From NCBI GenBank assembly GCA_035549315.1, contig DASZRC010000012.1, forward strand, positions 5,082 to 69,081: DNA of 64,000 nt, in the 5' to 3' direction. A program made the position numbers and the translations under genes. Source of the stretch: Patescibacteria group bacterium (lineage in GTDB: Bacteria > Patescibacteriota > Microgenomatia > Levybacterales > GWA1-39-11). Below the pieces are notes generated by a model that worked only from the letters and a program-made list of their open reading frames with translations, was not told where the DNA came from and made no database searches. Of the stretch, positions 2,426-22,885 are shown one piece after another. The stretch's first letter is position 1; each line of letters starts with the position of its first letter.

Positions 2426-4888
2426 ATGCCTAGATCTGCCCACAAGTTAGTGTTAGTGCTTACTATTCTCTTATTGATAGTAGGGCAAACCTATCTAATA
2501 ACTACCCCAAAAGCCTTTGCTGCAGATGGCATAAATAAGCAAATAAATTTCCAGGGAAAGGTTGTAAATAGCAACGGTACAAATGTAGCAGATGGAAGCT
2601 ATAATTTTGTCTTTAAAATCTATTCCACACCTTCCGGCGGATCCCCAATTTGGACAGAGACGAGAAGCGGCGGTAACCAAGTCCAGGTACAGGCAGGAAT
2701 ATTTAGAGTATCTTTAGGAAGTGTTCAGAGCTTACCAGGATCTGTTAACTTCAACTCAGATAGTCTTTACTTAGGAATTGAATTTAATGGGGATGGGGAG
2801 ATGACCCCTCGCGTTCGTTTTGCTTCTGTTCCTTATGCTTTTAATGCGGGGACCGTAAATGGCTTAACCGTTACAAATACCTCCGGTAATCCTTTTTCAT
2901 CAACAACCACTTTGCAAATAGCAGATGGCAAAACAGTTGTTGTAAACAATGGGCTTACGTTCTCAGGAACCGATTCAACAACATTTACTTTCCCTTCAAC
3001 AACCGGTGTTGTAGTGACAGAAGCTTTTGCCCAAACCTTAACAAGTAAAACAATTGGTTCAACGGGTCTTATATTCTCAGGGGCCGCAACAGATATAACA
3101 ACTGCAGCTAATGAAGTTTTGGGAATTAGTCCAAATGGGATAGGAAATGTCTTAATTAATCCTACTGCAGGAGGACAAGCAGCATTAATAATCGATAAAT
3201 TAGGAAATAACGATATCTTCACTGCTTCTGCTGCTGGTACAACACGATTTACAATCAACAATGCTGGGGCAATTGGTCTAACGGGTGGTTTTGGTATTGC
3301 AACTCAATGTCTTACATCAAATGGATCTGGAGCCGCTGCATCATGGGGATCATGTGGCGCAGGTGGTGGAGGAACCAACTATTGGCAGCTTAATGGTCCA
3401 GTTTTATCTCCTGGTAATTCAACTGTCGATTTGGCTATTGGTGGGACTTCCACTTCTTCTGCAAAGTTTGCAATTACTGGAATTGCTGGAAGTCAGACCC
3501 CGGTTGCAACCCTTTCCGCCACAACACCTGGTACGGGTATTGTAATTGGAGGAGATGGATCAATTCAAAGTCTTCAGCAAGGAACTCTAGTTTTGGGAGG
3601 AGCAACTACCGGAAATATTAAGTTAGTAAATACAACTGGCGATACAATACTTAACGCTCGTAATAATCAAACAGTAGCAATCGGTGCTGATGCAGATCCT
3701 GGTAATTGGGCAAGATTATATCTTAATGGAGGATTTAGAGCAGATGATGATTTCAGATTCCAAAAAGCATCAGGTACACAATATATTTCAAGACTCAATC
3801 AGGCAGGAAGTGGCGGGGCATCAGGATATGATCTAACGTTCCAGGTAAGAGGAGACAATATCTCTATGTTTGGTGCAGGAGGATTAATTATTAATAACTC
3901 TTCTGATTCCAATAACTTCTTTCAAGTTAAGAGCTCACAACAAGCAAACTCAATCTATCTAACCGGGAACACTGGTAATTTTGGTCTTGGTACAAGTACA
4001 CCGAATTCTCAATTGTATGTAACGCGTCCTCTTGCATCTGTTGCCAACGGAAAAGCTCTTGCAATCTTTGACCAAATAGAAAATCAGGATATATTAACTG
4101 CATCTTATGGGGGCGTTACGAAATTCACAATTAAAAATGATGGAACGGCATCGGTTTCTGCCGGTTTAACAATAAACTCCGTAGGAAGTGTTCAGGCTAC
4201 CAATGGTCAAACATTGACAATTGGAGGAGGAGATACGGGTAATATCACGATATCTCCAAATAGCGGCGGAATATTAATAGTCGGATCAGCAGCCAATGGC
4301 TTAACTTTCAATCCTAGTAGCAATGGTCCAACATATACCGGAACAGCTCGTCCTATAAAATCCGTAGTTTTGTCCCCTGAATATGCCGGAGCCGCTCTAA
4401 CTACAGACGGTTCATCAACAACCAATGGTTCAATGACCGCTGATAATACTCTTAATACCGGTGGGGTTGGTTGGAAAAATTATTATGAGTGGACATCAAC
4501 CCAAGGAGCTTTACAAGATTACACAATTACTGTTCGTGTTACCTTACCTCAAGATTTTGATAGCTGGCAGACCGGAAGTTGTGGTGGATCAACATGCGCA
4601 TTAGAAATTGCATATCAAACAGGAGTTTCCGGAACAACCGACAACGCGGTTTCTGTTCAGGTTAACAACGCGGAAAATAGCCCTGGCTCAGTAATCTGTA
4701 CAATCGCTGCTGCATCAAGCACTACATGGTCTACTTTTGGTTGTACATCAACTGACCTTGCTACTTCACCCACTTGGAATACTGCCGGAGATGTTGCAAT
4801 TTTGAGAATAAAGCTTGCTGCAGATAGCACATCAAGCGCCTTAGCAAGAGTAGGAGATATAACTTTGCGTTACTTTGCAAAGTACTAA
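2426..4888 (+). CDS. large secreted Gly/Thr/Asn-rich surface protein (820 aa)
   Basis: Signal peptide and hydrophobic N-terminus; conserved N-terminal module 'INFQGKVVNSNGTNVADGSYNFVFKIYSTPSGGSPIWTE' of a type seen on tail-fibre-like or cell-surface proteins; long G/T/N-rich region suggesting beta-helix or fibre. Confidence 0.65.
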   Translation: MPRSAHKLVLVLTILLLIVGQTYLITTPKAFAADGINKQINFQGKVVNSNGTNVADGSYNFVFKIYSTPSGGSPIWTETRSGGNQVQVQAGIFRVSLGSVQSLPGSVNFNSDSLYLGIEFNGDGEMTPRVRFASVPYAFNAGTVNGLTVTNTSGNPFSSTTTLQIADGKTVVVNNGLTFSGTDSTTFTFPSTTGVVVTEAFAQTLTSKTIGSTGLIFSGAATDITTAANEVLGISPNGIGNVLINPTAGGQAALIIDKLGNNDIFTASAAGTTRFTINNAGAIGLTGGFGIATQCLTSNGSGAAASWGSCGAGGGGTNYWQLNGPVLSPGNSTVDLAIGGTSTSSAKFAITGIAGSQTPVATLSATTPGTGIVIGGDGSIQSLQQGTLVLGGATTGNIKLVNTTGDTILNARNNQTVAIGADADPGNWARLYLNGGFRADDDFRFQKASGTQYISRLNQAGSGGASGYDLTFQVRGDNISMFGAGGLIINNSSDSNNFFQVKSSQQANSIYLTGNTGNFGLGTSTPNSQLYVTRPLASVANGKALAIFDQIENQDILTASYGGVTKFTIKNDGTASVSAGLTINSVGSVQATNGQTLTIGGGDTGNITISPNSGGILIVGSAANGLTFNPSSNGPTYTGTARPIKSVVLSPEYAGAALTTDGSSTTNGSMTADNTLNTGGVGWKNYYEWTSTQGALQDYTITVRVTLPQDFDSWQTGSCGGSTCALEIAYQTGVSGTTDNAVSVQVNNAENSPGSVICTIAAASSTTWSTFGCTSTDLATSPTWNTAGDVAILRIKLAADSTSSALARVGDITLRYFAKY

Positions 4889-4895
4889 ACATAAT

Positions 4896-7800
4896 ATGAA
4901 AGCAAAAAAAGATAAATACAAAAAAAATAACCTGTCTGCAGGCAGACAGAAAAATCTAAAAGTCAGAACAAAGACTATCAAGAAAAATAAATTGAAGACA
5001 ACTAAAAAAGTTGTTAAGAGAAGGGTGTCGGTTAAAAAAGTAACCCCGGCTTTTGGATTTGTGAAATTCATTGAAAGGGAAGAAAAGCTTTTGGAACAAG
5101 AATTTTTTACTCCCGCATTTGGATTTAACAAACACAACAGCAAAAGCTCAAAATCACTGTACTTTATAGATAGTCTATTTATTAATAACAAAGCACACAA
5201 TCTGAATAAAATACTTAGACATAAAAGGACTAAGACAATTTTACAAATTTCAAAAGTTACGGCCGTTTATTTGGCAATTATTTATATGTCGGTAGGAAAC
5301 TTTGCCCCTGTTTATGCTCAGGCTTTAGGTCAGGCGGTTGATAATCTGGTTTCCCAAGCAAGCAGTTCAGCTCTTTTTGCCCCACGTGTTGCTCTTCCTA
5401 TCCCGCAGCTAATTAAACCTTTTGTAGGTGATCACCCTGTTTCAAGGATTTATGGAGATACGGATTTGGATCACCAAGATAGCGCTTTTGGGAGAGCATT
5501 ATCAATTGCAGAGGGACCAAAAGGTAATAACGGATTAGACTTTTCAATGCCACTTGGGACACCACTTGTTGCAGTAGATGATGGAACAATTATTCAAGCG
5601 GGTAGTGGGGATTATGGAACAACTGTTGTAATAAAAAATTCTTGGGGAAAAAGCCTTTACGGACATTTAAGTGAAATTGGTAATTACAATGTTACAAATG
5701 GAGGCAACACAAATGACAATAGAAAACTCCAGCCCGGTGATCAAGTTAAAAAAGGAGATATTATTGGATGGGCAGGACAAACGGGGCTCGCAACAGGACC
5801 CCATCTTCATTTTGGCCTAAAAGATTCAAATGATAATTGGGTAGATCCGGCAAACTATCTTGGACTTCCACAATTTGCTGCAAAAGATCCTAATGCAACC
5901 GGATCGGCAACTTTAGCAAGTCTTGGTAGTCAGGTTTTGGGTATTGAAACAAATAACTTGGAGGCAAGTTTATCGGCAACAAGCAGAAGACCATCGGCTT
6001 TTGATGATAAATTAAATGATTCTTCCGAGCATTTTAGATACAGAAAAATTCTTAATCGTGGCGTAAACGCCCATTTTTGGGATAAGGATAAAAAGAAAGC
6101 GGACTTTTCCCTAACTGATGATTCAGGAAAGAGTAGTTTATCTTTTACATTAAGACAAGATAGCAACGCCACTGATTCGGCAGCGCCAACTGTTAACGGT
6201 GAAGAGTTAACTTATCCCGTAACAGTAGGTGGAGTTGATGCGGTTTTGAAATATACGGTAACTGATAATCAGGTAAAGGAACAAATTGTTTTTGATAAAA
6301 AACCAGATATATCAAATGATTTAAACATTGTTTTTGATACACAAGTTAATGGATTAAAAACAACATCAAACAATGGACAATACAATTTAAAATCAGATGA
6401 TGGATCAGATAATTGGACAATCCAAACACCAAATGTTGTTGATAGTAAAGGGGATAATGGTCAAATAATAGGAGTTTTGGATGGATCAACCTATACGCTA
6501 AAAATTGATAAAGATTTTCTTGATAAAGCTAACTATCCAATAACTGTTGACCCAACAGTTGTAATAAACACTTCATCAGACCTTAATGCTACCCAAGCAT
6601 CAACCCAGCATCACATTGTTAGAACAAGTGACGGAACACTTCACTCATTTGTTCAAGTTGGCACGCAAACTGCAACATGTGGTGGATCATCAAAATCAGG
6701 TCTTCTTTGGTTTAACTCAACAGATAATGGTGCAACATGGACATGTCAGGCGCAGCTTTCTAGCGACACAACAAATCTTTTTTATGCTGATGCCCGCGTT
6801 GATACATCGGATAACATATATGTAGTTTATTCCGTAAATACAACGGGTAGAAATAATGCGTATGATGTTATTTACCAAAAAATAAGCTATAACGGATCTT
6901 CTTCTTGGACAGCCCAAACTCCACAAACGGTTCTTGATGGATCAGGGAGTGCTACTGCTTATTCATATGCAACGATAGAGCTTGAGTCAACAACGCGCGC
7001 TTGGATAGCAACTCGTTATTATGATGGGACAAATTATGGTGTGACTGTTCAATATTCAAATAGTCTAGGTAATGCGCCAACCTGGACGCAATCAATCTCA
7101 AACCTTGATACAGTCGGGTCGACAAACACAAAACACATTCCTACAATGATCCGTTTTGGTACAAGCATAGGAGTTATTTGGAGTGATCAAACTGCCAATG
7201 GACTCTATTGGAGGACAAGAGGAGACTCTGACTCCTTATCTTCTTGGACAGCTCAAGTTGCAGTATTTACAGCAACAGGTCTTGTGACTCCAACTTTTGC
7301 GGCAGCAACAGATAACCAAGGACATATATATGTTGCAACAAATGCCGCAACTAGTGTTTATCTAAATTACTTCAATGGTGCTACGTGGACGGCAGCACTT
7401 ACCGTATCTTCAGCTGCAGCATCCGCTGCTTTCGTATCTCTTTCAACAGATGGAGATAATGTGTGGGTATTTTATGGAGATACAACAAATCTTGCTGCCG
7501 GACTATCCGGTAATAGAAGATTAGTTTACAAAGAATGTTATCCTCCATTTTTAGTAACGGCTGATTGCGACACAAACTCAACAAGTGTTAATTCTTATCA
7601 AGATATTTTTGATAAATCTTGGGCATTTAGGGCAACAGGATCTGTTTATACAGATGTCACAACGGCTGCCGGTAACACAACTACGGCGGATGTTTTTAAC
7701 TCATCCTCAACAAAGATGGTATCCGCACTTGGGGACATAATTTATTTTGGAAAAACTGTTCAATATGATGCAATTTCTTGGGCAATATCAACGGCTGGAG

Positions 7801-10800
7801 TCGGTGGAACAATTGTTTGGGAATATTGTAGTGGAGTAGACGGCAGCAATAATTGTAATGCGTGGAGTACATTATCATTTACGGCCTCAAGTACTCCAAG
7901 CTTTACGGCAACAACTAACGGATATGGTGCGTTCACTCCACCAGGTGGTTGGGTAGCAGGAAAAGTTAATACAGATTCAAGCACTTATTATTATATTCGG
8001 GCTCGTGTAAGCGTTGCTTATACCACCGCACCAATTGGTACGCAAATGACTTCAATACCTCAGATTAATTGGCCAAGTGCAATTACCAATGTAGTCTCAA
8101 ATTCTGTCTATATGACTTGGAATGAGAATGCTACAAGCCCTGAGAAAGTAAAATATGGTGCGGCAACAGTAAGTGCATTAACTCCCGGTACAGATAGTAA
8201 TATTAATCCGGTTAGTGCTTACTCATCACTTACCACTGCGAGCCAATTATCAACCCAGCACCATCTTGTCAGAACGACTGATGGGACTCTCCACCAATTT
8301 ATACAAGCAGGAACCCTTTATGCTTGTGGAGCAGGTTCTGGAACAGCCCCGGGTCTTGTTTGGCTTACTTCAACGGATAGTGGAGCTACTTGGAATTGTC
8401 AGGGACAGCTAAATTCTGCTGCAACTTATTTTGCAGACGCAAGAGTAGATTCTTCAGACAATATATATGTAGTTTATTCAACGGCTGCCAATGGAGCAGG
8501 GGCAGCAAATGATGTCTTCTATAGAAAGCTTACGTATGGTGGATCATCTTGGACATTAGGATCAGAGCAAACCGTTTTTGACGGAACAGGGTCAGTTGGG
8601 TATTCATATGCAGCGCTAGAAATTGATTCAAGTAGAGTATGGGTTGCAGCTCGTTACTTTGATGGAGTTAATTATCAAGTTTCAGTTGATTATTCAAATG
8701 ACCAGTCCGCCTCTCCAACATGGACAACTTCAATAACAAATCTTGAAACGGTAGGATCTACAACTACAAAACATATTCCCACAATGGTTCGTTTTGGAAC
8801 AAACATTGGAGTTATCTGGGTTGATCAAACAAGTACGGGTCTTTATTGGAGATTCCATGGGGATTCGGATCCTCTAACTTCCTGGACAGGCCAGGCTCCT
8901 GCCTTTTCAACAACGGCACTAACTACTGCAACATTCACTGCGGTATCAGATTCCCAGGGCCACATCTATCTTGCTGCAGTGCCTGGAACAAACGCCGTCT
9001 ATCTTACATACTTCAACGGTGAGACGTGGACAACTCCATTTATAGTTTCATCAACAGTTACCGCTGGAACATTTGTTGCCTTATCAACAGATGGTAACAG
9101 TGTTTGGGTATTTTATGGAGATACAACAAACCTTTCAGGAAGCCTTCCCGGGCTTAGAAGACTTGCTTATAAAAAATGTAGTCCGCCATTTTTTACAGCG
9201 ACTGACTGTGATTCAACAGCAACAAATGTAAATACATACCAAGATATATTTGATAAAGTTTGGAAGTTTACTTCCATAGGTTCTGTCTATGCAGATGAAA
9301 CAACAGCTGCCGGTAATACAACAACAGCAGACGTTTCTATAGGAGGTGCTCTTAACGACATAATGTATTGGGGTAAAACAACTCCATTTGATACATTGGG
9401 TTATGTTTTATCAACTAACGGAACAACCGGAGTAGTGCGTTGGGAATATTGGAATGGTACTGCTTGGGTTCCAATTCCTACATTTATTTCAACATCGGCT
9501 CAAAACTATACGGCAACAGGATACATAAACTTTGTACCAATGTCTGATTGGGCAACCACCCAGATTAATGGTGAGTCAACGCCTTACTACTATATTCGCT
9601 CAAGGGTTGTTACGGCTTACGTTGCTGTACCAATTGGAACTCAAATGGATGCAATTCCCCAGATTAACTGGGCCAATTCACTTACAAATGTAGTTTCAAA
9701 TACTACACCTATAATTTGGACGGAAAACTCTGTTTCTCCAATGAGGCTTAGATATAAAACGGTAACTACCACGTCATCAACTCGCTCTGCCGCATCAGAA
9801 ATTAGTCCAAGTGTTGTAGGTTACTCGGCACTTACCACAGCAACCCAAGATTCTTCACAGCATCATCTTGTCAGGACAACTGATGGAACGCTCCATGCAT
9901 TTGTCCAATCTTCAACAACTCAGTTGGGATGTGGTGGGCAAGCCGGAAATAATTCTGCCTCTCTTAATTGGATAGAATCAACGGATAATGGAGCAACTTG
10001 GAGTTGTCAGGGGCAGCTAAATTCAGCTGCAACTTATTTTGCCGATGCAAGAGTAGACTCTTCAGATAATATATATGTAACTTACTCGGTGGCAGGAAAT
10101 GGAGCAGGGGCAGCAAATGATGTATATTATAGAAAGATTACCTACAACGGTTCGTCCACCTGGACGTTAGGTGCAGAAAGATTAGTGCTAGATGGAACCG
10201 CAGGTGTTGGATATGCTTATGCTGCACTGGAACTTGATCCATCCCATGTATGGATATCTGCCCGTTATTTTGACGGAACAAATTATCAAGTAACCGTCTA
10301 TTATTCTTCAAATCTGTCTGACAATCCTTCCTGGACTCAATCTATTACGCATCTTGATACGGTTGGAACAACAGCCACTCGTCATACTCCTGCTATGGTT
10401 CGCTTTGGAACAAACATTGGAGTAGTTTGGAATGACCAGACAAATACCGGATTAAGGTGGCGCTTTAGAAATGATTCAGATGATTTGTCCGCTTGGGTTA
10501 CAGAAACCAATGTTTTCAGTACAGCAGCTTTAGGAATTGGTTTGTTTGCAGTAACCTCAGATTCAGCAGGTAGAGTATATGTTGCTGCAGATCCTAATAC
10601 AACAGCTTATCTTACTTACTTTAATGGGGTGGCTTGGACAGCTCCACTTGTTGTGACAACAACCTCATCATCTGCATTATTTATTTCTCTCTCAACAGAC
10701 GGTAATAACGTTTGGGTGTTTTATGGAGATACAACAAATCTTAGCGGAACTTTATCCGGTAATAGACGTCTTGCTTATAAAAAATGTGCGCCTCCATTCT

Positions 10801-13106
10801 TAAATACAACAGATTGTGATACTAGTCCAACAAATATAGTAAGTACTGAGAATACTTATGATAAGGTTTGGCTTTATAACCAATCTGCAGCTGCTTATCA
10901 GGATTTAACAACAGCCGCTGCTAACACAACAGCAGCAGACGTTTTTGATACAGTATCCTCAGGTCTTGTTTCAGCAGTAAGTGATGCTGCTTATTTTGGG
11001 TCGGCAAGTAAATTTGATACCATTTCTTGGGTATTATCAACAAATGGAACAACAGGAACTGTTGTTTGGGAATATTGGAATGGGTCAGCCTGGGCTCCAT
11101 TAACAGATATCCTAACTTACTCTTCAGCAAGCTTTACCGGAAGCGGAAATCTAACATTTATTCCGGATAATGATTGGGCAGCAACTCAAGTAAGCACAGA
11201 TAGCTCCCCTTACTACTATATCCGTGCCCGTGTTACATCGGCTTATGTCTCAAAACCGGTTGGAACCCAAATGGCAGCAATAAGTGCAGTTAACTGGGCA
11301 AGTGCTTTATCAAATGTAGTATCTGATACAACTCCAATAATTTGGACGGAAAATGCTGCAGCACCGGAAAGAGTACGCTACATTGCAGCAACTACTACAA
11401 GTTCATCTAGATCAACGGTTTCTGAAATAGCTCCCGGCATTATTGGTTATTCAGCAACAGTAAATGGAACAGCAGCATCAATGGAAAGACATTTAGTAAG
11501 AGCTTCCAACGGTACACTTAACGCATTTGTTGAAGCAAATACCCAACTTGGATGTGGAAGTCAAACAGGCACCAATATAGGTCTCATGTGGGTTCAGTCT
11601 ACAAACGGTGGGGCAACCTGGTCATGTATGGGGGCTCTAAATACTTCAACTCTTTACTACTCTGACGCCCAAATTGATTCTTCAAACAATATATACCTGG
11701 TTTACTCAGCGGTTGGAGCGAGCGCCGGTACGCAATATGACGTTTTTTACAGAAAGCTCACTTATAGCGGGGCTAACTCATGGACATTGGGAGCAGAGCA
11801 AATAGCAATTGATAATGTTAGCTCATCCCAACACTACGAGTTTGCAACAATTGCAGTAGAGGGGACTTCAAGACTTTGGATAGCGACCCGCTATTTTGAT
11901 GGAACAAACTATAAAATACCCGTTTATTATTCATCAGATCAATCGGATACTCCTACCTGGACCCAGTCGGTTGCTGCAGTAGATACGCCGGGGACTAATG
12001 GTAGCTACCATGTTGGAGAAATTGTTAGATTTGGTACGTCAAAGACTGCTGTTATATTTACAGATCAAGCATCAGGTGGAGATATGAAATGGAGCTGGAG
12101 GGATGACTCTGATGGACTAACTTCTTGGAATGCAATCGCAACGGCAAATGCAAGTACGGCTCTTGCAACATCAGGGTTTTCCGTAGCAGGAGACACAAAT
12201 GGCAATATTTACATAGCTGTTAACCAGGCGGCCTCCATATTCTTTAATTATTACAATGGTTCTGGTTGGTCATCTAATACAACTGTCACATCAACGGCTG
12301 CTTCAAGCACCTTCGTTTCCGTTTCAACAGACGGGACAAGTGCGTGGGTATTATACGGAGATACAAATGGACTTTCCGGAAGCCTTTTTGGAAGCAGACG
12401 TCTAGTTTATCAAAAAGGTGTAGCGCCTTTTGCATTTGCAAATTTTGGCGCAGTGACTCCGGTTATCTCACAAGAAACTACATATGATAAAGTTTGGCTT
12501 TATAACCAAGCAGCAACCGGTTATCAAGATCTAACAACCGCTGCCGGTAACACAACTACGGCAGATGTTAAGTACACCACAACATCAGCTGTTGTTTCAG
12601 CGGTTAATGACGCTGCTTATTTTGGTGCAACAACAAAGTTTGATTCTATTTCCTGGGCATTATCAACTGCCGGAACAACCGGGGTAATAGAGTGGGAATA
12701 TTGGAACGGATCTTCCTGGACTCCATTGACAGATATAATCTCAAGCGCAACTCCTAACTTTACAGCAACAACAGGATACATATCATTTATTCCAAATAAT
12801 GATTGGGCGGCAACTCAAGTAAATACAGATAGTACTCCTTACTACTATATCCGTGCCCGCGTAGTAACCGCTTTTGGTACAAAGCCGGTTGGAACTCAAA
12901 TGGATGCAATGACTCAAATAAATATGGCAAATCTTATTGGAACAACAGATGGGGGAGTGTATGGAATCTGGACAGAAAATAGCTCTGCAGTTATGAAGAT
13001 GAGATATTCAACAATTTTTGAGCCCAATAATGGGCCAACACTTGCGCAATTACTCCGTCACGGACAATGGTTTAACAATGGAGTAATACAGCCATTTACT
13101 TGGTAA
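4896..13106 (+). CDS. giant membrane-anchored M23 (LytM-type) peptidase fused to four tandem BNR/Asp-box propeller-like repeats
   Basis: ATG at 4896 follows the upstream stop; the ORF track's TTG at 4875 overlaps the previous gene. Basic N-terminus then TM helix. M23 signature 'GLDFSMPLGTPLVAVDDGTIIQAG...GHLSEI...GWAGQTGLATGPHLHFGLKD' at ~5400-5830. Four ~540-aa repeats each with Asp-boxes S-x-D-x-G-x-T-W (STDNGATW, STDSGATW, STNGGATW) plus SSWTAQ-type degenerate boxes. Confidence 0.8.
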   Translation: MKAKKDKYKKNNLSAGRQKNLKVRTKTIKKNKLKTTKKVVKRRVSVKKVTPAFGFVKFIEREEKLLEQEFFTPAFGFNKHNSKSSKSLYFIDSLFINNKAHNLNKILRHKRTKTILQISKVTAVYLAIIYMSVGNFAPVYAQALGQAVDNLVSQASSSALFAPRVALPIPQLIKPFVGDHPVSRIYGDTDLDHQDSAFGRALSIAEGPKGNNGLDFSMPLGTPLVAVDDGTIIQAGSGDYGTTVVIKNSWGKSLYGHLSEIGNYNVTNGGNTNDNRKLQPGDQVKKGDIIGWAGQTGLATGPHLHFGLKDSNDNWVDPANYLGLPQFAAKDPNATGSATLASLGSQVLGIETNNLEASLSATSRRPSAFDDKLNDSSEHFRYRKILNRGVNAHFWDKDKKKADFSLTDDSGKSSLSFTLRQDSNATDSAAPTVNGEELTYPVTVGGVDAVLKYTVTDNQVKEQIVFDKKPDISNDLNIVFDTQVNGLKTTSNNGQYNLKSDDGSDNWTIQTPNVVDSKGDNGQIIGVLDGSTYTLKIDKDFLDKANYPITVDPTVVINTSSDLNATQASTQHHIVRTSDGTLHSFVQVGTQTATCGGSSKSGLLWFNSTDNGATWTCQAQLSSDTTNLFYADARVDTSDNIYVVYSVNTTGRNNAYDVIYQKISYNGSSSWTAQTPQTVLDGSGSATAYSYATIELESTTRAWIATRYYDGTNYGVTVQYSNSLGNAPTWTQSISNLDTVGSTNTKHIPTMIRFGTSIGVIWSDQTANGLYWRTRGDSDSLSSWTAQVAVFTATGLVTPTFAAATDNQGHIYVATNAATSVYLNYFNGATWTAALTVSSAAASAAFVSLSTDGDNVWVFYGDTTNLAAGLSGNRRLVYKECYPPFLVTADCDTNSTSVNSYQDIFDKSWAFRATGSVYTDVTTAAGNTTTADVFNSSSTKMVSALGDIIYFGKTVQYDAISWAISTAGVGGTIVWEYCSGVDGSNNCNAWSTLSFTASSTPSFTATTNGYGAFTPPGGWVAGKVNTDSSTYYYIRARVSVAYTTAPIGTQMTSIPQINWPSAITNVVSNSVYMTWNENATSPEKVKYGAATVSALTPGTDSNINPVSAYSSLTTASQLSTQHHLVRTTDGTLHQFIQAGTLYACGAGSGTAPGLVWLTSTDSGATWNCQGQLNSAATYFADARVDSSDNIYVVYSTAANGAGAANDVFYRKLTYGGSSWTLGSEQTVFDGTGSVGYSYAALEIDSSRVWVAARYFDGVNYQVSVDYSNDQSASPTWTTSITNLETVGSTTTKHIPTMVRFGTNIGVIWVDQTSTGLYWRFHGDSDPLTSWTGQAPAFSTTALTTATFTAVSDSQGHIYLAAVPGTNAVYLTYFNGETWTTPFIVSSTVTAGTFVALSTDGNSVWVFYGDTTNLSGSLPGLRRLAYKKCSPPFFTATDCDSTATNVNTYQDIFDKVWKFTSIGSVYADETTAAGNTTTADVSIGGALNDIMYWGKTTPFDTLGYVLSTNGTTGVVRWEYWNGTAWVPIPTFISTSAQNYTATGYINFVPMSDWATTQINGESTPYYYIRSRVVTAYVAVPIGTQMDAIPQINWANSLTNVVSNTTPIIWTENSVSPMRLRYKTVTTTSSTRSAASEISPSVVGYSALTTATQDSSQHHLVRTTDGTLHAFVQSSTTQLGCGGQAGNNSASLNWIESTDNGATWSCQGQLNSAATYFADARVDSSDNIYVTYSVAGNGAGAANDVYYRKITYNGSSTWTLGAERLVLDGTAGVGYAYAALELDPSHVWISARYFDGTNYQVTVYYSSNLSDNPSWTQSITHLDTVGTTATRHTPAMVRFGTNIGVVWNDQTNTGLRWRFRNDSDDLSAWVTETNVFSTAALGIGLFAVTSDSAGRVYVAADPNTTAYLTYFNGVAWTAPLVVTTTSSSALFISLSTDGNNVWVFYGDTTNLSGTLSGNRRLAYKKCAPPFLNTTDCDTSPTNIVSTENTYDKVWLYNQSAAAYQDLTTAAANTTAADVFDTVSSGLVSAVSDAAYFGSASKFDTISWVLSTNGTTGTVVWEYWNGSAWAPLTDILTYSSASFTGSGNLTFIPDNDWAATQVSTDSSPYYYIRARVTSAYVSKPVGTQMAAISAVNWASALSNVVSDTTPIIWTENAAAPERVRYIAATTTSSSRSTVSEIAPGIIGYSATVNGTAASMERHLVRASNGTLNAFVEANTQLGCGSQTGTNIGLMWVQSTNGGATWSCMGALNTSTLYYSDAQIDSSNNIYLVYSAVGASAGTQYDVFYRKLTYSGANSWTLGAEQIAIDNVSSSQHYEFATIAVEGTSRLWIATRYFDGTNYKIPVYYSSDQSDTPTWTQSVAAVDTPGTNGSYHVGEIVRFGTSKTAVIFTDQASGGDMKWSWRDDSDGLTSWNAIATANASTALATSGFSVAGDTNGNIYIAVNQAASIFFNYYNGSGWSSNTTVTSTAASSTFVSVSTDGTSAWVLYGDTNGLSGSLFGSRRLVYQKGVAPFAFANFGAVTPVISQETTYDKVWLYNQAATGYQDLTTAAGNTTTADVKYTTTSAVVSAVNDAAYFGATTKFDSISWALSTAGTTGVIEWEYWNGSSWTPLTDIISSATPNFTATTGYISFIPNNDWAATQVNTDSTPYYYIRARVVTAFGTKPVGTQMDAMTQINMANLIGTTDGGVYGIWTENSSAVMKMRYSTIFEPNNGPTLAQLLRHGQWFNNGVIQPFTW
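6600..13106 (+). repeat. four in-frame tandem repeats of ~1.6 kb inside the giant gene
   Basis: Repeat starts at ~6600, ~8250, ~9860, ~11485, each beginning '...QHH(I/L)VRT(S/T)DGTLH' (degenerate 'ERHLVRASNGTLN' in repeat 4). Protein identity roughly 50-60%. Confidence 0.8.
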
Positions 13107-13394: not shown

Positions 13395-13424
13395 TTGACA
13401 TGTAAAAATGAAATCACCTATCAT
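13395..13424 (+). promoter_or_regulatory. putative sigma70-like promoter (TTGACA-N18-TATCAT) giving near-leaderless transcript for 13431 gene
   Basis: TTGACA at 13395-13400 and TATCAT at 13419-13424; ATG at 13431. Confidence 0.3.
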
Positions 13425-13430
13425 ATTAAC

Positions 13431-14249
13431 ATGGCCAAGAAAAAGATTAGTGAAGCAGAAATTGAAAAAAACGAGGAAGTAGCGCCCTTAGTTATAGAGG
13501 AAGCGCCTAAAAAATCAAAGTTATCTTTGACTAGCCATAGCATAGCCTATCTTATTGTTCTTTTTGTAATAATACTTTGCTTTATTGGAATGGCATTCTT
13601 CTATGTCAAATTCCAAAATTCTATAAATAAGTCATTTGGAGTTCCTACAATTGGGGCGCCAAATACCCCGGATAAAAATAAAGAACTGCTTGATGCTGTC
13701 TCAAAAATCGCAGAGTTACCTCCTAATGAAACGCCAACTTTTGCTACGGTTTCAGATGTTACAAAGCTTTCAGGCCAAAGTTTTTTTGCTAATGCCCAAA
13801 ATGGTGATCAGGTTTTAATTTATAACAACGCAAAGAAAGCTTATCTTTATAGGCCAAGTACGGGAAAGATAGTCAATATTGGCCCGGTTGCATTGAGTAA
13901 TGATACTGTTCCTTCAGAATCTGCTTCCCCATCAGCAGCAGCTACTCCAACAGCTTTGCCAAAAGTTGTAATACTTAACGGATCAACAAAAGTGGGTCTT
14001 ACTAAGATTGCAGATTCAAAACTCAAGGCAGATAAGGTCAAGGTGCAGGTTGCTGACCGCGATAACGCAAGACTAAATACATACCAAGATACTTTGGTGG
14101 TTGATATTACCGGTCAACACAAGGATGCAATAGCTTCAATAATTAAAGCCATAGGCGGTAAACAGGCTCCATTGCCAAAAGGAGAAGTAGCATCTTCAAG
14201 CGCAGATATATTAATAATTTTGGGTTCAGATTTTAACTCCGCTCAATAA
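13431..14249 (+). CDS. membrane-anchored LytR_C (LytR/CpsA/Psr C-terminal) domain protein
   Basis: Single TM (IAYLIVLFVIILCFIGMAFFYV). C-terminal 'VVILNGSTKVGLTKIADSKLKADKVKVQVADRDNARLNTYQDTLVV' matches the LytR cell-envelope-related C-terminal domain pattern. Confidence 0.55.
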   Translation: MAKKKISEAEIEKNEEVAPLVIEEAPKKSKLSLTSHSIAYLIVLFVIILCFIGMAFFYVKFQNSINKSFGVPTIGAPNTPDKNKELLDAVSKIAELPPNETPTFATVSDVTKLSGQSFFANAQNGDQVLIYNNAKKAYLYRPSTGKIVNIGPVALSNDTVPSESASPSAAATPTALPKVVILNGSTKVGLTKIADSKLKADKVKVQVADRDNARLNTYQDTLVVDITGQHKDAIASIIKAIGGKQAPLPKGEVASSSADILIILGSDFNSAQ

Positions 14250-17035
14250 GAAGAAGATAGTCTCTTTCTAAGTACCCTGTGAGCATAGAACAGCCACACA
14301 ATTATTGTCAGAATAGTAGCAATTATGAAGGGTAGAGTTGTAATAAGTCCGACCGTCTTAATAAATATAGTCTCAAATAAGATACAAGCTACTAGTAAAA
14401 GCTCAAAGCTAAATCCTACCAAATTTTCCATTCCGGCTAATAGAGTGCTAATCAAACTCTGTGAATCAGCCTCGTTTTTACGCGTCAAGGTAAACTGGAG
14501 TTTATGACTGGGGTAGGTTAGGCTATAGTCTTTTAATATTTCATTGGCGTAGCCATTTTTTGATACAACTATTTTAAAAGATGAGCCGCTTAATGGCTTC
14601 TTAATAAAGAAATCGCCGGTTTTATTTGTTTTAGTTTTAGCAATAAGCTGGCCTCCATGCAAATCAAATACTTCAACCAAAGCTTGGGTTAAATGGTTTC
14701 CCTTTGTGTGATCCATAACCTCTCCATATATATACTTGTTGTGGGTATGCCTAAATATTATTTCCTCAATTTCAAAGAATAAATAGCCTGGTAGATCAAG
14801 AGGCCTAATATGAGTTTTAACACTCAAGGCAGAAACTGTTGTAATAAGTAAAAGTAATAGGGATAGGGTAGCTATTAGATAGAAAAATCTATTAGAGCTT
14901 GCTAGCGCTGCAAGATAAAGAGATGTTGTTTGATAAAAATCACTAATTGTTGAGGCATAATAATCTATAATTACAAAAATATTGAGACCAACCGAACTTA
15001 GGTAAACTTGCGGATAATTTCCCTTTCCGGGACCAATTTCAAATCTTATTTCTTTTGGAGAGTACCCAATTGCTTCAACAACTATTTTATATTGGCCTTG
15101 GGGTAGAGTGATGCCAATCGTGCCATCCTTATTAGTATAAATTGGGTTTTGAATATTAAGAACACTTGGGGAGATTAGGGTATAGATTCTGCTATATGTA
15201 TTGTATACAAAAAGAGTTACTCTAGCGCCCTCTATAGGTTTTTTACTTTTGGCACTAAAGACATGAAGCGGGGTTACAAAGTTAAGGTTTGCTATTTTCT
15301 GTTCTGCTATATTGCCGCTAAAGTCTGCTATCTGGACATATAATTCATAATCCCCCGGAACCGATTGTCCAAGTAGCCTACCTATATATATACCCGGTTG
15401 GATTTCTGTTATTTCTACATTTTCAGAGCTTAAATTAGTCGTGACGGGTGGAGTTAGAGTATTTATTCCTAGAACTGTTTTTGATTTCAAAATTGCCCTG
15501 ATTCTTTTGATAGGTATGTTTTTCTGAAGTGAAAACCTAAATTCGTAAGGTGCATTGATAGGCATAACTATGGTTGGGGGCTGGTTGAGGCTTCCGCTAC
15601 CTGTTGCAGGATTTGCTCCGGAGGAGATGATATTGTTGTTGCTCGAGGTTATAAGGCTATTTATATTAACTTGTGGGCTTTCAGAAAGGGTAGCAGTAGT
15701 TAAAACATATATATCAGAGTTTATTTCTTCGCCAACTGCGTTTGTGGCTGTAATTGTAAAATAGTAGGTTGTAGAAGGGGTTAGGTCTGAAAGATTAATA
15801 GTAAAGTTTGTAGATTGATTTTTAGGCTTAATAATTTTTGTAAGTGCGGTTGGATCTATTCCGTAGCTAAAGACAATATTGGCAGCTTCATTTAGACTTG
15901 TAGAAATCTGGGCGGTTGAAGATGTTATTGAATCAATAGAAATTGTATTGAATGCAAACGGATTTGATGGATTAGGGGTCACGGTTGGACCTGGGGTACT
16001 TGTTGGTCCGGGCCCAGATGTAGGATTGGGGCCCGCCGTAGGCGTAGGGGTTGGAGTAGGGGCTCCCTCATATAAATAGTCAGATGTGACCGTGGAGTCG
16101 GGTGTCTGCGTGCCTGGCCCAACAACTCTTCCGTTTACGGAAAAGGATACGGTATTTGTGCCTGTATAAGCACTATTTGTTTTTAGCTGAAAAGTTACGG
16201 TTTGACCAGTGGTGTTGCCCGGAAAAACAGGAATGTGCCAAGTGATTTTTCTATTCACTGTATCTACAATTGGGGTTGCGCCTCCATATCCGTTACTAGC
16301 ACTGCCTATGACATAATCAAGAATATCCACTGTTGGAATGCCTGATCCAGATATTGTTCCTAGGCTCCAATCAGCCTCAACGTCTATGGTTGCACCATAA
16401 GATAAATTTGAGCCATAAGTTAGGGTATAGGTAAGAGTTGTATTTTGAGGGAAAGTAGAGCCACTTGGGTTTGTCAAAGCCAAGCTTGCATCAAAGTCTG
16501 TAGGGTTGGCAGCAACCGCCGCGCTTACATTTATCTGGTCATTAGCCACAATTGTCAGTCCATAGTCACCACTGTCAATTGGGGCTCCGCCGCTAGTTCT
16601 TGTTGTCAGTGTACCGCTTTTTTCGCCAAGAGTGCTAGTTGTTAATGTATTAGCGGCTGAGAAGTTAAAGCAATATGTAGTGCCGGTTGCTAGATTGCCA
16701 CTTGGGAAAGTAACGGTTTGGCCGGATACGCCAGTTGCGGTACCAATGCCGGGCCAAGCGCTTGCACCGGTTAAAAGATTTGTTGTGGTTACTGTCCAAT
16801 TAGCCGGATTATTATTTACACTAAATCCATTTGGAAAAGTTATTGATACCAAACCTTCCGTGGCATTAGATGTTGGTTGTCCGCAAATCATTCCACCAGT
16901 TGTTGTATTTGGTATTAGCCGGTCAAGTCTTACAAGCGTTGTTGATAAGTCTGAGGCCTCGGTCAGAGACATAAATGGAGATAAAATCCCAAGGAAAGCT
17001 ATAAGAATAATAAGGTAGGACAGGCACCTTTTCAT
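14243..17035 (-). CDS. large secreted/membrane surface protein with PT-linker, carboxypeptidase-regulatory-like beta-sandwich segments and C-terminal TM helices
   Basis: Signal peptide MKRCLSYLIILIAFLGILSPFMSLTEA; PT linker 'PTPTPTPTAGPNPTSGPGPTSTPGPTVTPNPSNP'; 'KPIEGARVTLFVYNT...DGTIGITLPQGQYKIVVEAIGYSPKEIRFE' and 'EVFDLHGGQLIAKTKTNKTGDFFIKKPLSGSSFKIVVSKNGYANE' are CarboxypepD_reg-like; several hydrophobic helices in the C-terminal third. Confidence 0.6.
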   Translation of the reverse strand: MKRCLSYLIILIAFLGILSPFMSLTEASDLSTTLVRLDRLIPNTTTGGMICGQPTSNATEGLVSITFPNGFSVNNNPANWTVTTTNLLTGASAWPGIGTATGVSGQTVTFPSGNLATGTTYCFNFSAANTLTTSTLGEKSGTLTTRTSGGAPIDSGDYGLTIVANDQINVSAAVAANPTDFDASLALTNPSGSTFPQNTTLTYTLTYGSNLSYGATIDVEADWSLGTISGSGIPTVDILDYVIGSASNGYGGATPIVDTVNRKITWHIPVFPGNTTGQTVTFQLKTNSAYTGTNTVSFSVNGRVVGPGTQTPDSTVTSDYLYEGAPTPTPTPTAGPNPTSGPGPTSTPGPTVTPNPSNPFAFNTISIDSITSSTAQISTSLNEAANIVFSYGIDPTALTKIIKPKNQSTNFTINLSDLTPSTTYYFTITATNAVGEEINSDIYVLTTATLSESPQVNINSLITSSNNNIISSGANPATGSGSLNQPPTIVMPINAPYEFRFSLQKNIPIKRIRAILKSKTVLGINTLTPPVTTNLSSENVEITEIQPGIYIGRLLGQSVPGDYELYVQIADFSGNIAEQKIANLNFVTPLHVFSAKSKKPIEGARVTLFVYNTYSRIYTLISPSVLNIQNPIYTNKDGTIGITLPQGQYKIVVEAIGYSPKEIRFEIGPGKGNYPQVYLSSVGLNIFVIIDYYASTISDFYQTTSLYLAALASSNRFFYLIATLSLLLLLITTVSALSVKTHIRPLDLPGYLFFEIEEIIFRHTHNKYIYGEVMDHTKGNHLTQALVEVFDLHGGQLIAKTKTNKTGDFFIKKPLSGSSFKIVVSKNGYANEILKDYSLTYPSHKLQFTLTRKNEADSQSLISTLLAGMENLVGFSFELLLVACILFETIFIKTVGLITTLPFIIATILTIIVWLFYAHRVLRKRLSSSY

Positions 17036-21964: not shown

Positions 21965-22885
21965 ATGATGGAAAAAAACAAATACGGTTTTATTGATAAT
22001 TTCGCCGCCCAATTCCTATTTTTCTTTGCAATAGGTGGGCTTTGCATAACTCTTCTATTGGTATTCCCAATTCCCCTTGCAACAATTATGCAGATTATCT
22101 TTACGTTAATTGTTGTAAGTATTTTCTCTTTAAGATTTGTTGTTTTTGAGGGGGATAGCAAAAAACCAAGCCTATATAAAGTTCTTGGGCTTATCCCAAT
22201 TGTCTTATTAATTCAGTTCTTAATATTTTCAACAGGAGGTCTTTCCAGTGTTTTTCTTGTCGCTTCTTATCTGTTTACTATTGGTCTATCTTTTCTTGTT
22301 TCCCCCCAGGCGGGTCTAACTTTTATAACCGCTAACACAATTTTACTCATTATATATACGGCCCTAGATGCCCGTTCAATTGATTTTTTCCAAAGAGAGC
22401 CGGCCGCTGCTGTCCTTTATTTGCTTTCATATATAGTTCTCATACCTTTTTCATATTTTGTTGCACGGGAGTATAGGGTTAAAGATGATTGGGCAGATGT
22501 TTTAAAAAAGCAGATAGAAATGTTTAAAACAGAAGAGGATGAATTTTTAAAAAACATTGATGAGGCGGTTGTTGTTGCGGATCCCAATTTTAAGGCAATG
22601 TATTTTAATGAAAATGCAAAAGACTATTGTAAAGATCCCAATAATATTGCAGGTCAACTAATATCTAATATTTTAAAATTCAAGAATTCAGATGGTAAAG
22701 TGCTTGATGCTGGTGATTTTCTTCATGATGCGCTTGATATGAGAAAAACCTTAACGCGTGCCAATATTATGGTTACAAATAACAAGGGCGGTCAAGAGAG
22801 AGCGGATTTAGTAGCTGTGCCAATTGTAGAAGATGGCAATGTAGTTGCAACTAGCCTCATAATTAAGAGCAAAGGCGCTAAATAA
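21965..22885 (+). CDS. polytopic membrane protein with C-terminal cytoplasmic PAS-like sensor domain, no output domain
   Basis: ~6 hydrophobic helices in the first 170 aa; C-terminal 130 aa have a PAS-like alpha/beta pattern; no kinase/GGDEF motifs. Confidence 0.4.
   Translation: MMEKNKYGFIDNFAAQFLFFFAIGGLCITLLLVFPIPLATIMQIIFTLIVVSIFSLRFVVFEGDSKKPSLYKVLGLIPIVLLIQFLIFSTGGLSSVFLVASYLFTIGLSFLVSPQAGLTFITANTILLIIYTALDARSIDFFQREPAAAVLYLLSYIVLIPFSYFVAREYRVKDDWADVLKKQIEMFKTEEDEFLKNIDEAVVVADPNFKAMYFNENAKDYCKDPNNIAGQLISNILKFKNSDGKVLDAGDFLHDALDMRKTLTRANIMVTNNKGGQERADLVAVPIVEDGNVVATSLIIKSKGAK

What the first reader, a model, noticed from the sequence alone, without database searches (positions are those of the whole stretch)
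4896..13106. ~2,737-aa protein fusing a membrane-anchored M23 peptidase to four tandem sialidase-like BNR propeller repeats
After a poly-basic N-terminus and one TM helix comes a complete M23/LytM domain (HxxxD-like and GPHLHFG motifs). The rest of the gene (6600-13106) is four in-frame ~1.62 kb repeats. Each contains canonical Asp-boxes (S-x-D-x-G-x-T-W: STDNGATW etc.) and several degenerate ones, i.e. a BNR beta-propeller as in exo-sialidases/GH33-type enzymes. Each is followed by a ~200-aa Cys-containing beta-rich module (YKECYPPF...CD...). A peptidoglycan endopeptidase fused to a tetramer of glycan-binding or glycan-cleaving propellers is an unusual architecture. It would suit a surface organelle for attaching to or remodelling another cell's envelope (inference, e.g. 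episymbiont-host contact).
Basis: partly seen in the sequence, partly recalled or inferred. Interest (0 to 1): 0.75.

Follow-up and report, generated by a model that had tools for sequence, protein, structure and literature searches.

The report
Giant CPR surface protein, propeller repeats
A 2,736-residue secreted protein of an uncultured Patescibacteria (CPR) bacterium joins a cell-wall peptidase domain lacking one zinc ligand to four diverged copies of a beta-propeller plus a jelly-roll domain shared with phage tails. It is most likely a long surface fibre for binding other cells rather than a sialidase.

Summary
One ORF (4896-13106, +) encodes 2,736 aa: a Lys/Arg-rich N-terminus, a single hydrophobic segment, a Pfam-significant M23 domain, a ~220-aa unassigned domain, and four tandem ~540-aa units (45-61% aa identity). 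The repeats are too diverged to be an assembly artefact, and an independent assembly gives the same sequence.

- The M23 domain is not complete: its first zinc ligand is Asn (NNGLD), whereas every same-architecture relative examined keeps His.
- Each unit does model as an Asp-box beta-propeller. It has no FRIP motif, no conserved Glu/Tyr catalytic set, no threshold Pfam hit and no PDB sequence match. Sialidases are not its best structural matches.
- The architecture is not unique: M23 + pre-domain + 1-2 units, and 4-unit giants without M23, recur in CPR genomes.

Best reading: a wall-proximal, probably weakly active or inactive M23 domain carries a ~2,200-aa lectin- or adhesin-like stalk. The function is inferred. 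The unit is an undescribed CPR-restricted family.

The parts
4896..13106 (+). Whole CDS, 2,736 aa plus stop (NCBI HVZ66924.1)
4896..5237 (+). Lys/Arg-rich N-terminal extension (aa 1-114; 34 K/R), absent from relatives, which have short signal peptides
5238..5324 (+). Only hydrophobic segment (aa ~115-143), ending in APVYA-QA. It is either a signal anchor or the h-region of a cleavable signal peptide
5523..5849 (+). Peptidase_M23 domain (aa 210-318). Motif 1 is N211xxxD215 (His replaced by Asn); H257 and H303xH305 are retained
5886..6539 (+). 'Pre' domain (aa 331-548), with no Pfam/NCBIfam/PHROG match. It recurs before the first unit in relatives, and its C-terminal ~50 aa are weakly blade-like
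6600..7550 (+). Unit 1 Asp-box beta-propeller (aa 569-885)
7581..8081 (+). Unit 1 jelly-roll (aa 896-1062), with an extra disulfide loop CSGVDGSNNC
8250..9194 (+). Unit 2 Asp-box beta-propeller (aa 1119-1433), the copy modelled with AF2
9222..9680 (+). [not shown]
9681..9791 (+). Unit 2 'tail' (conserved IWTEN...RY). It is a linker or a candidate extra blade; equivalent segments end units 1, 3 and 4
9852..10799 (+). Unit 3 Asp-box beta-propeller (aa 1653-1968)
10830..11306 (+). Unit 3 jelly-roll (aa 1979-2137)
11481..12431 (+). Unit 4 propeller (aa 2196-2512), the most diverged copy, with the Asp-box degraded to STNGGATW
12456..12935 (+). Unit 4 jelly-roll (aa 2521-2680)
2426..4888 (+). Context: a gene for an 820-aa secreted fibre-like protein that ends 7 nt before the ATG, so it is a probable operon partner. 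It has a sub-threshold match to the Bdellovibrio MAT fibre N-terminal domain

Best explanation
This is a secreted giant cell-envelope protein of a Patescibacteria (CPR) bacterium, and it belongs to an undescribed, CPR-restricted modular family.

Shown by the tools:
- An N-terminal export signal is followed by an M23 (LytM-type) peptidoglycan-peptidase domain, a ~220-aa unassigned beta-rich domain, and four diverged tandem units.
- Each unit consists of an Asp-box beta-propeller, a ~150-aa jelly-roll and a ~45-aa conserved tail.

Inferred:
- Because the export signal is N-terminal, the M23 domain is the end nearest the cell's own membrane and wall.
- Its first zinc ligand is Asn instead of His, so it probably acts as a weak enzyme or as a non-catalytic peptidoglycan-binding foot. 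It could either hold the protein in the producer's wall or locally loosen that wall.
- The ~2,200-aa chain of disulfide-stabilised propeller and jelly-roll modules would project outward as a fibre tens of nanometres long.
- The modules would act as non-catalytic binding units (lectin- or adhesin-like) for surface glycans or proteins of a partner cell.
- The jelly-roll is homologous to an outer domain of podophage nozzle proteins and similar to one in contractile-injection baseplate proteins. The T7 counterpart docks tail fibres.
For: - Architecture and repeats.
- Export signal with the conserved PV[YF]A[QE] end.
- M23 domain and motifs: Pfam 69.4 bits; alignment to lysostaphin, LytM and zoocin places N211 at the Zn-ligand His, with D215, H257 and H303/H305 retained; five same-architecture relatives and L008 and L019 keep His.
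- Conservation across 124 non-redundant propellers is almost entirely structural: one Trp per blade, Asp-box residues and the C46-C70 pair. The only conserved polar cluster is on a single blade, RY(F/Y)DGxNY.
- All 16 Cys form 8 short-range pairs, as expected for an extracellular protein.
- Family context: the named loci are Daviesbacteria, Roizmanbacteria, WWE3, Woesebacteria and Saccharibacteria, and unit number varies from 1 to 4.
- CPR giant membrane or surface proteins are thought to mediate host attachment (PMC8080830).
Against: - No binding or localisation data exist, and ligand specificity is unknown.
- A single His-to-Asn change does not prove that the M23 domain is inactive.
- If the signal is cleaved, the way the protein stays attached to the cell is unknown.
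- The homologous phage and eCIS domains sit in protein assemblies, so the jelly-roll may bind protein rather than glycan.
Confidence: 0.5

Rival explanations
1. Multi-catalytic envelope-degrading enzyme. The propellers would be active glycoside hydrolases or polysaccharide lyases (sialidase-like, or GH145/PL42/PL25-like), targeted by the jelly-rolls acting as CBMs. With the M23 peptidase they would digest a host cell's wall and capsule.
For: - Asp-box propellers are mostly glycosidases (PMC2716378).
- The propeller-plus-sandwich order mirrors the sialidase + CBM32 and GH32/GH43 + sandwich arrangements.
- R155/Y156/D158/N161/Y162 are conserved on one blade loop, with H195 and Y138 retained in all four units.
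Against: - There is no FRIP motif, no Glu column above 61% and no conserved His across 132 propellers.
- No GH or PL family is detected in Pfam. BNR_2 is sub-threshold and covers one blade only.
- A propeller profile finds no PDB sequence at E<=10.
- Lectin and scaffold propellers score as well as the enzymes do.
- The M23 domain has lost a Zn ligand in this protein.
- The M23 domain sits at the cell-proximal end, which is a poor position for attacking another cell.
Confidence: 0.18
2. Self-directed wall-remodelling enzyme with a structural or S-layer-like extension. The M23 domain would be a housekeeping or insertion-associated endopeptidase for the producer's own peptidoglycan. The repeats would form part of the cell's outer coat rather than recognising partners.
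For: - NCBI names it a peptidoglycan DD-metalloendopeptidase family protein. NCBIfam gives sub-threshold similarity to MepM, ShyA and DipM.
- The M23 domain is adjacent to the export signal.
- A downstream neighbour has a LytR_C envelope domain, and the genome encodes Ddl.
- Many family members lack M23 altogether, so the repeats function independently of it.
Against: - The Zn-ligand His is lost here.
- The family is patchy, with 20 loci among 185,579 species genomes, and copy number is variable. This is unlike an essential coat or housekeeping enzyme.
- The units diverge strongly (45-61%), which fits diversifying binding surfaces better.
Confidence: 0.17
3. Docking mast for fibres. By analogy with the phage-nozzle 'fiber dock' and with eCIS baseplate domains, the four jelly-rolls would dock trimeric fibre adhesins such as the product of the adjacent upstream gene. 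This would build a phage-tail-like recognition device on the cell surface.
For: - The jelly-roll is homologous to LME-1 nozzle orf18 and weakly similar to Afp11.
- In T7 the jelly-roll after the nozzle propeller is the fibre dock (PMC6702177).
- The upstream gene ends 7 nt before this one. It encodes a secreted 820-aa Gly/Thr-rich protein with a weak match to the Bdellovibrio MAT fibre N-domain, 31.7 bits against a cutoff of 60.
Against: - No fibre-like gene is found next to the 20 related loci.
- The MAT match is below its cutoff.
- It has not been shown which T7 nozzle domain corresponds to orf18 aa 518-632.
- The propeller family is absent from viral contigs.
Confidence: 0.1

Closest known systems
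Peptidase family M23 (LytM, lysostaphin, zoocin A; degenerate LytM factors EnvC, NlpD, DipM)
   Same: Domain-level homology to lysostaphin, zoocin A and LytM at E ~1e-13. The D of HxxxD, the mid-domain His and the HxH motif are retained.
   Different: The first Zn-ligand His is Asn. This is intermediate between active enzymes and fully degenerate LytM factors. The domain is fused to ~2,400 aa of non-peptidase modules.
Asp-box (BNR) beta-propellers, including GH33 sialidases
   Same: A propeller with an Asp-box hairpin between strands 3 and 4: one canonical SxDxGxTW plus degenerate Trp-containing copies. It is followed by a beta-sandwich, as in the Micromonospora sialidase + CBM32 arrangement.
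GH145 / PL42 / PL25 propellers and PLL-type bacterial lectins
   Different: From my own knowledge these are seven-bladed, whereas the model shows six 4-strand blades. Sequence identity is 8-14%. Their catalytic or binding residues could not be compared because no coordinates were available.
Podophage nozzle protein (Legionella phage LME-1 orf18, PDB 9efk chain M; T7 gp12 type)
   Different: The nozzle is a hexameric DNA-gating virion protein. There is no detectable sequence similarity in the propeller part. The CPR units are tandem within one chain, and the gene lies in a cellular genome context.
eCIS baseplate proteins Pvc11, Afp11 and Baseplate_J-like proteins
   Different: Everything else about these proteins differs, and no contractile-system genes are seen in the window.
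CBM32 / F5/8 type C (galactose-binding-like) modules
   Different: There is no Pfam F5_F8_type_C match, and ligand-binding residues are not comparable. The phage-type domain is much the closer relative.
Giant surface proteins of CPR episymbionts (for example Vampirococcus lugosii)
   Same: Very large exported proteins in a reduced CPR genome, proposed to mediate host attachment (PMC8080830).
   Different: That paper does not mention propellers or BNR domains in my term search. This particular module family is not described in any paper I found.

Membership tests
Peptidase M23 (Pfam PF01551 / MEROPS M23) | Domain profile match above the curated threshold | tested here: met
   69.4 bits against a cutoff of 28.7, aa 210-318. 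PDB matches to lysostaphin, zoocin A and LytM at E ~1e-13.
Peptidase M23 (catalytically competent) | HxxxD motif supplying two Zn ligands | tested here: not met
   The motif is N211-N-G-L-D215. It aligns to H-Y-G-V-D of lysostaphin and LytM, and relatives have HNG[LVI]D.
Peptidase M23 (catalytically competent) | HxH motif and the mid-domain catalytic His | tested here: met
   PH303LH305F and YGH257LS align to PHLHF and YMHLS of lysostaphin.
Peptidase M23 (catalytically competent) | Endopeptidase activity on peptidoglycan cross-bridges | not testable with these tools
   This needs a biochemical assay of the wild type and an N211H revertant.
GH33 exo-sialidase | Beta-propeller catalytic domain (six blades) | tested here: inconclusive
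   [not shown]
GH33 exo-sialidase | Several Asp-boxes (SxDxGxTW) | tested here: met
   One canonical Asp-box per unit, plus degenerate Trp hairpins in four more blades.
GH33 exo-sialidase | FRIP / xRxP motif | tested here: not met
   There is no [FYWL]R[IVL]P anywhere in the protein.
GH33 exo-sialidase | Conserved Arg triad, Tyr/Glu nucleophile pair and acid/base Asp | tested here: not met
   No Glu column exceeds 61% in 132 propellers. The conserved Arg residues lie in mid- or bottom-strand positions or on a single blade loop. This rests on conservation only, because structural superposition was not possible.
GH33 exo-sialidase | Sequence-family match (Pfam BNR_2/Sialidase, or PDB sialidases) | tested here: not met
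   BNR_2 scores 22.7 and 19.5 bits against a cutoff of 31.4, in two of the four units only. The PDB profile search returns nothing at E<=10.
Asp-box beta-propeller superfamily (Quistgaard & Thirup 2009, PMC2716378) | Propeller blades carrying Asp-box hairpins between strands 3 and 4 | tested here: met
   S61-T-D-S-G-A-T-W68 lies between strands 52-61 and 69-75. Equivalent Trp residues W121, W178, W232 and W280 are 93-99% conserved.
Phage-nozzle / eCIS-baseplate jelly-roll domain (unnamed; LME-1 orf18 aa 518-632) | Same fold with high structural similarity | tested here: met
   [not shown]
Phage-nozzle / eCIS-baseplate jelly-roll domain | Significant sequence-profile match | tested here: met
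   E 1.9e-7 to 9efk_M. There are 102 tblastn-confirmed relatives in IMG/VR.
CBM32 / F5/8 type C | Family profile match and carbohydrate-binding site | tested here: not met
   [not shown]

The most novel reading that the evidence does not exclude
The propeller-plus-jelly-roll unit may be a cellular relative of the podophage nozzle and eCIS baseplate core. CPR bacteria would have multimerised it into a wall-rooted, phage-tail-like recognition fibre. That fibre could dock accessory adhesin fibres and, in relatives with an intact M23 domain, locally cut peptidoglycan at the contact site with the host. This would be a previously unrecognised episymbiont attachment organelle sharing parts with phage tails.
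Probability: 0.12. Interest if true: 0.75.

Novelty: new variant of a known kind. Interest (0 to 1): 0.45.

Why it matters
How CPR/Patescibacteria recognise and hold on to host cells is largely unknown, and their giant surface proteins are mostly unannotated.

This locus defines a recurrent, lineage-restricted module (Asp-box propeller + phage-type jelly-roll + tail) that current databases miss. Pfam, NCBIfam, PHROGs and PDB sequences give no threshold match for the unit. NCBI names the 2,736-aa protein only for its 110-aa M23 domain.

Two leads can be tested directly:
- Whether the units are lectins, and for which glycans.
- Whether the M23 domain, which naturally varies at a zinc ligand between relatives, is an enzyme or a wall anchor.

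The homology between the jelly-roll and a domain of phage nozzle and contractile-injection baseplate proteins also gives that widespread, unnamed viral domain a cellular counterpart.

The finding is a useful annotation and a set of hypotheses. It is not a new principle.

Tried and rejected
- Tandem Repeats Finder found nothing because the units are too long and too diverged. The repeats were defined by protein self-alignment instead.
- The search for homologous proteins with one unit returned only 7 proteins, because it is limited by its word index. With the jelly-roll alone it returned nothing, so that search was wasted. The exhaustive HMMER search was needed and gave 3,130 representatives.
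- PDB sequence searches with unit or propeller profiles found nothing at E<=10.
- PHROGs on the units, the pre-domain and the upstream protein gave no significant match. Most viral carriers of the jelly-roll are also unassigned in PHROGs.
- No phage relative of the whole unit or of the propeller was found.
- Assembly artefact was rejected. DNA identity between units is 55-65%, exact matches are at most 26 nt, and an independent assembly is identical.
- A shorter N-terminus from a mis-called start was considered. The only in-frame starts between aa 66 and the hydrophobic segment fall inside that segment, so the extension is kept, with doubt.
- Conserved synteny was tested. None of the window's flanking genes recurs beside the 20 related loci, except a membrane/PAS-like protein (window 21965-22885) directly downstream in L007 and L008. 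No fibre-like genes lie beside relatives.
- The seventh-blade idea was tested. hhalign of the 'tail' against the six blades gives only 12-14% probability, comparable to the weakest true blade pairs, so the result is inconclusive.
- Residue-level superposition on sialidase, GH145 or PL active sites was not possible because model coordinates are not exposed.
Full report
**1. Observation**

The window carries one long ORF on the + strand. Its first ATG is at 4896 and its stop at 13104-13106, giving 2,736 aa. The product is identical to NCBI HVZ66924.1, 'peptidoglycan DD-metalloendopeptidase family protein [Patescibacteria group bacterium]', on an 88-kb MAG contig. A Logan assembly of run SRR12170510 reproduces 10.6 kb of the locus base for base.

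The N-terminal 114 aa hold 34 Lys/Arg against 7 Asp/Glu. There is a single hydrophobic stretch at aa ~115-143. Pfam finds only Peptidase_M23, at aa 210-318, with 69.4 bits against a cutoff of 28.7.

Self-alignment defines four in-frame units: aa 549-1098, 1099-1632, 1633-2173 and 2174-2736, starting at nt 6540, 8190, 9792 and 11415. They are 45-61% identical in protein and 55-65% in DNA, and no exact shared stretch exceeds 26 nt. The repeat array is therefore real and old, not an assembly collapse or expansion.

Each unit has one canonical or near-canonical Asp-box: STDNGATW, STDSGATW, STDNGATW and STNGGATW.

**2. The M23 domain is not intact**

Alignment to lysostaphin, zoocin A and LytM places N211 of 'NNGLD' at the first zinc-ligand His of HxxxD. 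The codon is AAT, one base away from a His codon. D215, H257 (YGHLS) and H303/H305 (PHLHF) are retained.

Five cluster representatives with the same architecture, and the genome loci L008 and L019, all have HNG[LVI]D or HDGID. The substitution is therefore specific to this protein.

From general knowledge of the family, mutating this His abolishes LytM and lysostaphin activity, and degenerate LytM domains (EnvC, NlpD) act as non-catalytic binders or activators. I infer reduced or lost catalysis, but this is not shown.

**3. Export signal**

In relatives the M23 domain follows an ordinary signal peptide that ends in a conserved PV[YF]A[QE]-like motif. The window protein has the same motif, APVYA-QA, after its hydrophobic stretch. 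It also carries a ~100-aa Lys-rich extension in front of that stretch.

No usable in-frame start lies closer than aa 66. I cannot decide between the two.

**4. The units**

AlphaFold2 on unit 2, with a 9-sequence alignment, gave mean pLDDT 69.8. The score was 80-95 across residues ~70-300.

DSSP shows 24 strands in six A-B-C-D groups. Six phi-x-D-(S/G)-x-x-phi A-B hairpins can be read directly in the sequence. The Asp-box lies between strands C and D of blade 1, and conserved Trp residues occupy the same position in blades 2-5.

The fold searches returned the following.
- Foldseek returned only propeller proteins: sialidases and pseudaminidase, GH43/GH32, PLL, AOL and RSL lectins, and the phage LME-1 chain 9efk_M as the top E-value.

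The conserved 'tail' (IWTEN...RY) aligns in register to blades 2 and 4. The hhalign probabilities are 12-14%, no worse than some genuine blade pairs. The ~50 residues before unit 1 weakly resemble designed propeller blades. A seventh blade supplied by the tail or by the preceding segment is therefore possible but unresolved.

**5. Not a sialidase by any test I could run**

- There is no FRIP-like motif in the protein.
- BNR_2 reaches only 22.7 and 19.5 bits against a cutoff of 31.4, over a single blade, in two of the four units.
- Profiles of 4, 9 or 41 sequences find no PDB chain even at E<=10.
- Across 124 non-redundant propeller instances, the columns conserved at >=80% are one Trp per blade, the Asp-box residues, hairpin Asp/Asn/Gly, a Cys46-Cys70 pair and a few Arg/Lys.
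- No Glu column exceeds 61% and no His column reaches 80%.
- The only conserved polar cluster expected on the top face is RY(F/Y)DGxNY, on the B-C loop of blade 3.

This pattern fits a scaffold or lectin-type propeller better than a central multi-blade active site. Because I could not superpose coordinates, the enzyme alternative keeps about 0.18 probability. The literature also notes that Asp-boxes occur widely in propellers beyond sialidases (PMC2716378).

**6. The 'Cys-containing beta-rich module'**

The YKxC...DC pair is present only in units 1-3 and is absent from unit 4 and from most relatives. All 16 cysteines of the protein form eight short-range pairs, which is consistent with an extracellular location.

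A profile of the module matches orf18 aa 518-632 at E 1.9e-7, with shared YfG / WeYxnGxxW / YwIR motifs. It matches Afp11 only marginally. The PDB entry has six copies of orf18, which fits the hexameric nozzle described for LME-1 (PMC12407071). That assignment is my inference. T7 nozzle gp12 is a seven-bladed propeller followed by a jelly-roll 'fiber dock' and a jelly-roll platform (PMC6702177), so the domain order of the CPR unit parallels a nozzle core.

The module has 102 confirmed relatives in IMG/VR contigs. In the 21 loci whose carrying ORF was extracted, that ORF is 325-1,582 aa, mostly 600-1,000 aa. The three carrier loci whose neighbours were scanned include one beside a portal gene and one beside internal-virion and virion-structural genes. 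These carriers are mostly unassigned in PHROGs. The propeller family was not found in viral collections.

**7. Family and distribution**

An exhaustive HMMER search of 1.84 billion representatives found 3,130 proteins at E<=1e-3 and 125 at E<=1e-30. Among the 150 best listed, the weaker hits match only the jelly-roll.

My domain mapping shows a modular family.
- Signal + 1-4 units, with four units in P0009 and L002, L006 and L009 (L003 has four if two adjacent ORFs are one gene).
- 'Pre' + units.
- M23 + pre + 1-2 units (P0012, P0025, P0031 and L008, L020); P0039/L019 show M23 + pre + a propeller only, and P0048 lacks the pre-domain.
- C-terminal Ig-like domains are often added.

In GTDB species genomes the unit occurs at 20 loci. 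Those named are Daviesbacteria, Roizmanbacteria, WWE3, Woesebacteria and Saccharibacteria. The others carry labels I suspect are wrong.

The window protein is the only one seen that combines M23 with four units, but that is a quantitative difference. No flanking gene is conserved beside relatives apart from one membrane protein in two loci.

**8. Context**

The genome is bacterial and makes peptidoglycan precursors (Ddl). It encodes glycogen enzymes and several other large secreted repeat proteins.

The gene immediately upstream (2426-4888, 7-nt gap, no terminator in between) encodes a secreted 820-aa Gly/Thr-rich protein. Its N-terminus gives a sub-threshold match to the Bdellovibrio mosaic adhesive trimer fibre family. 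This adjacency is not seen in relatives.

**9. Mechanism**

*Shown:* export signal, M23 homology with one ligand lost, a propeller plus phage-type jelly-roll repeated four times, disulfide-type Cys pairs, and a CPR-restricted modular family.

*Inferred:* the N-terminal M23 end stays at the producer's wall, either as a weak enzyme or as a peptidoglycan-binding foot. The four units form an extended fibre whose propellers and jelly-rolls bind partner-cell surface molecules. This matches the proposed role of giant surface proteins in CPR episymbionts (PMC8080830).

Rivals, with my confidences:
- Active glycan-degrading enzyme, 0.18.
- Self-wall remodelling or coat protein, 0.17.
- Fibre-docking mast, 0.10.

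**10. Novelty and score**

The gene is already deposited and is named for its M23 domain. Its parts belong to known fold classes, and similar proteins recur in CPR genomes.

What is new is the definition of an unannotated unit family and its homology to a phage-nozzle and baseplate domain, neither mentioned in the papers my two searches returned, together with the Zn-ligand variant. I rate it a new variant of a known kind, with interest 0.45.

Noticed in passing
window 2426-4888 (+): An 820-aa secreted Gly/Thr/Ser-rich protein ends 7 nt before the giant gene. Its N-terminal ~70 aa give a sub-threshold NCBIfam match to Bdello_MAT_N, the mosaic adhesive trimer fibre family of Bdellovibrio (31.7 bits, cutoff 60). 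It has no Pfam or PHROG match, and no equivalent gene lies beside related loci.
   Followed up: partly
L022-L101 (IMG/VR contigs); e.g. L031:5260-8163, L022:5260-7890: The ~150-aa jelly-roll of the repeats has 102 tblastn-confirmed relatives in uncultivated viral genomes. In the 21 loci examined the carrying ORFs are 325-1,582 aa (mostly 600-1,000 aa), and some lie next to portal or virion genes. Neither Pfam nor PHROGs has a family for it, so it looks like a widespread unnamed phage tail/nozzle domain (WxYxxGxxW ... YYIRxR).
   Followed up: partly
window 42125-46192 (-): A second giant protein (1,355 aa) has ten matched stretches of Pfam DUF7483 (E 3e-82) plus a weak DUF7361 match. It is another repeat-built surface-type protein in the same window.
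   Followed up: no
window 14243-17035 (-) and 13395-14249 (+): Downstream neighbours: a 930-aa protein with CarboxypepD_reg and weak fn3 domains, and a 284-aa single-TM protein with a LytR_C envelope domain.
   Followed up: no
window 21965-22885 (+); L007:5865-6668, L008:12101-12859: A multi-TM protein with a soluble C-terminal domain has no Pfam or NCBIfam match. Its homologues lie directly downstream of the giant-family gene in two related loci, whereas here it is 9 kb away. This may be a weak functional link.
   Followed up: partly
L004-L008, L013, L016, L019 (labelled Gammaproteobacteria/Pseudomonadales); L001 (Nanoarchaeia); L010 (Dehalococcoidales); L014 (Weeksellaceae): About half of the GTDB loci carrying this otherwise CPR-typical family carry non-CPR organism labels. 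GC is 41-54%. I suspect mislabelled or mis-binned MAGs, but I did not verify this.
   Followed up: no
window 27139-28113 (+) and 30917-32323 (-): A 324-aa protein has a partial Glyco_hydro_19 (chitinase/lysozyme-like) match, and a 468-aa protein has a C-terminal CAP domain. Both are further candidate secreted envelope-active proteins.
   Followed up: no
window 4896-5237 (+): The Lys-rich 114-aa N-terminal extension contains an internal duplication, TPAFGF(V/N)K. It is absent from all relatives examined, which start with short signal peptides. Its role is unknown and no alternative start explains it away.
   Followed up: partly
window 6365-6520 (+), aa ~490-538: The last ~50 aa of the 'pre' domain (NNGQYNLKSDDGSDNWTIQ...STYTLKID) weakly resemble propeller blades. 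The match to the designed 'Cake' propellers has E 0.06, and phmmer matches it to the unit propeller. It may contribute a blade to the first propeller.
   Followed up: partly
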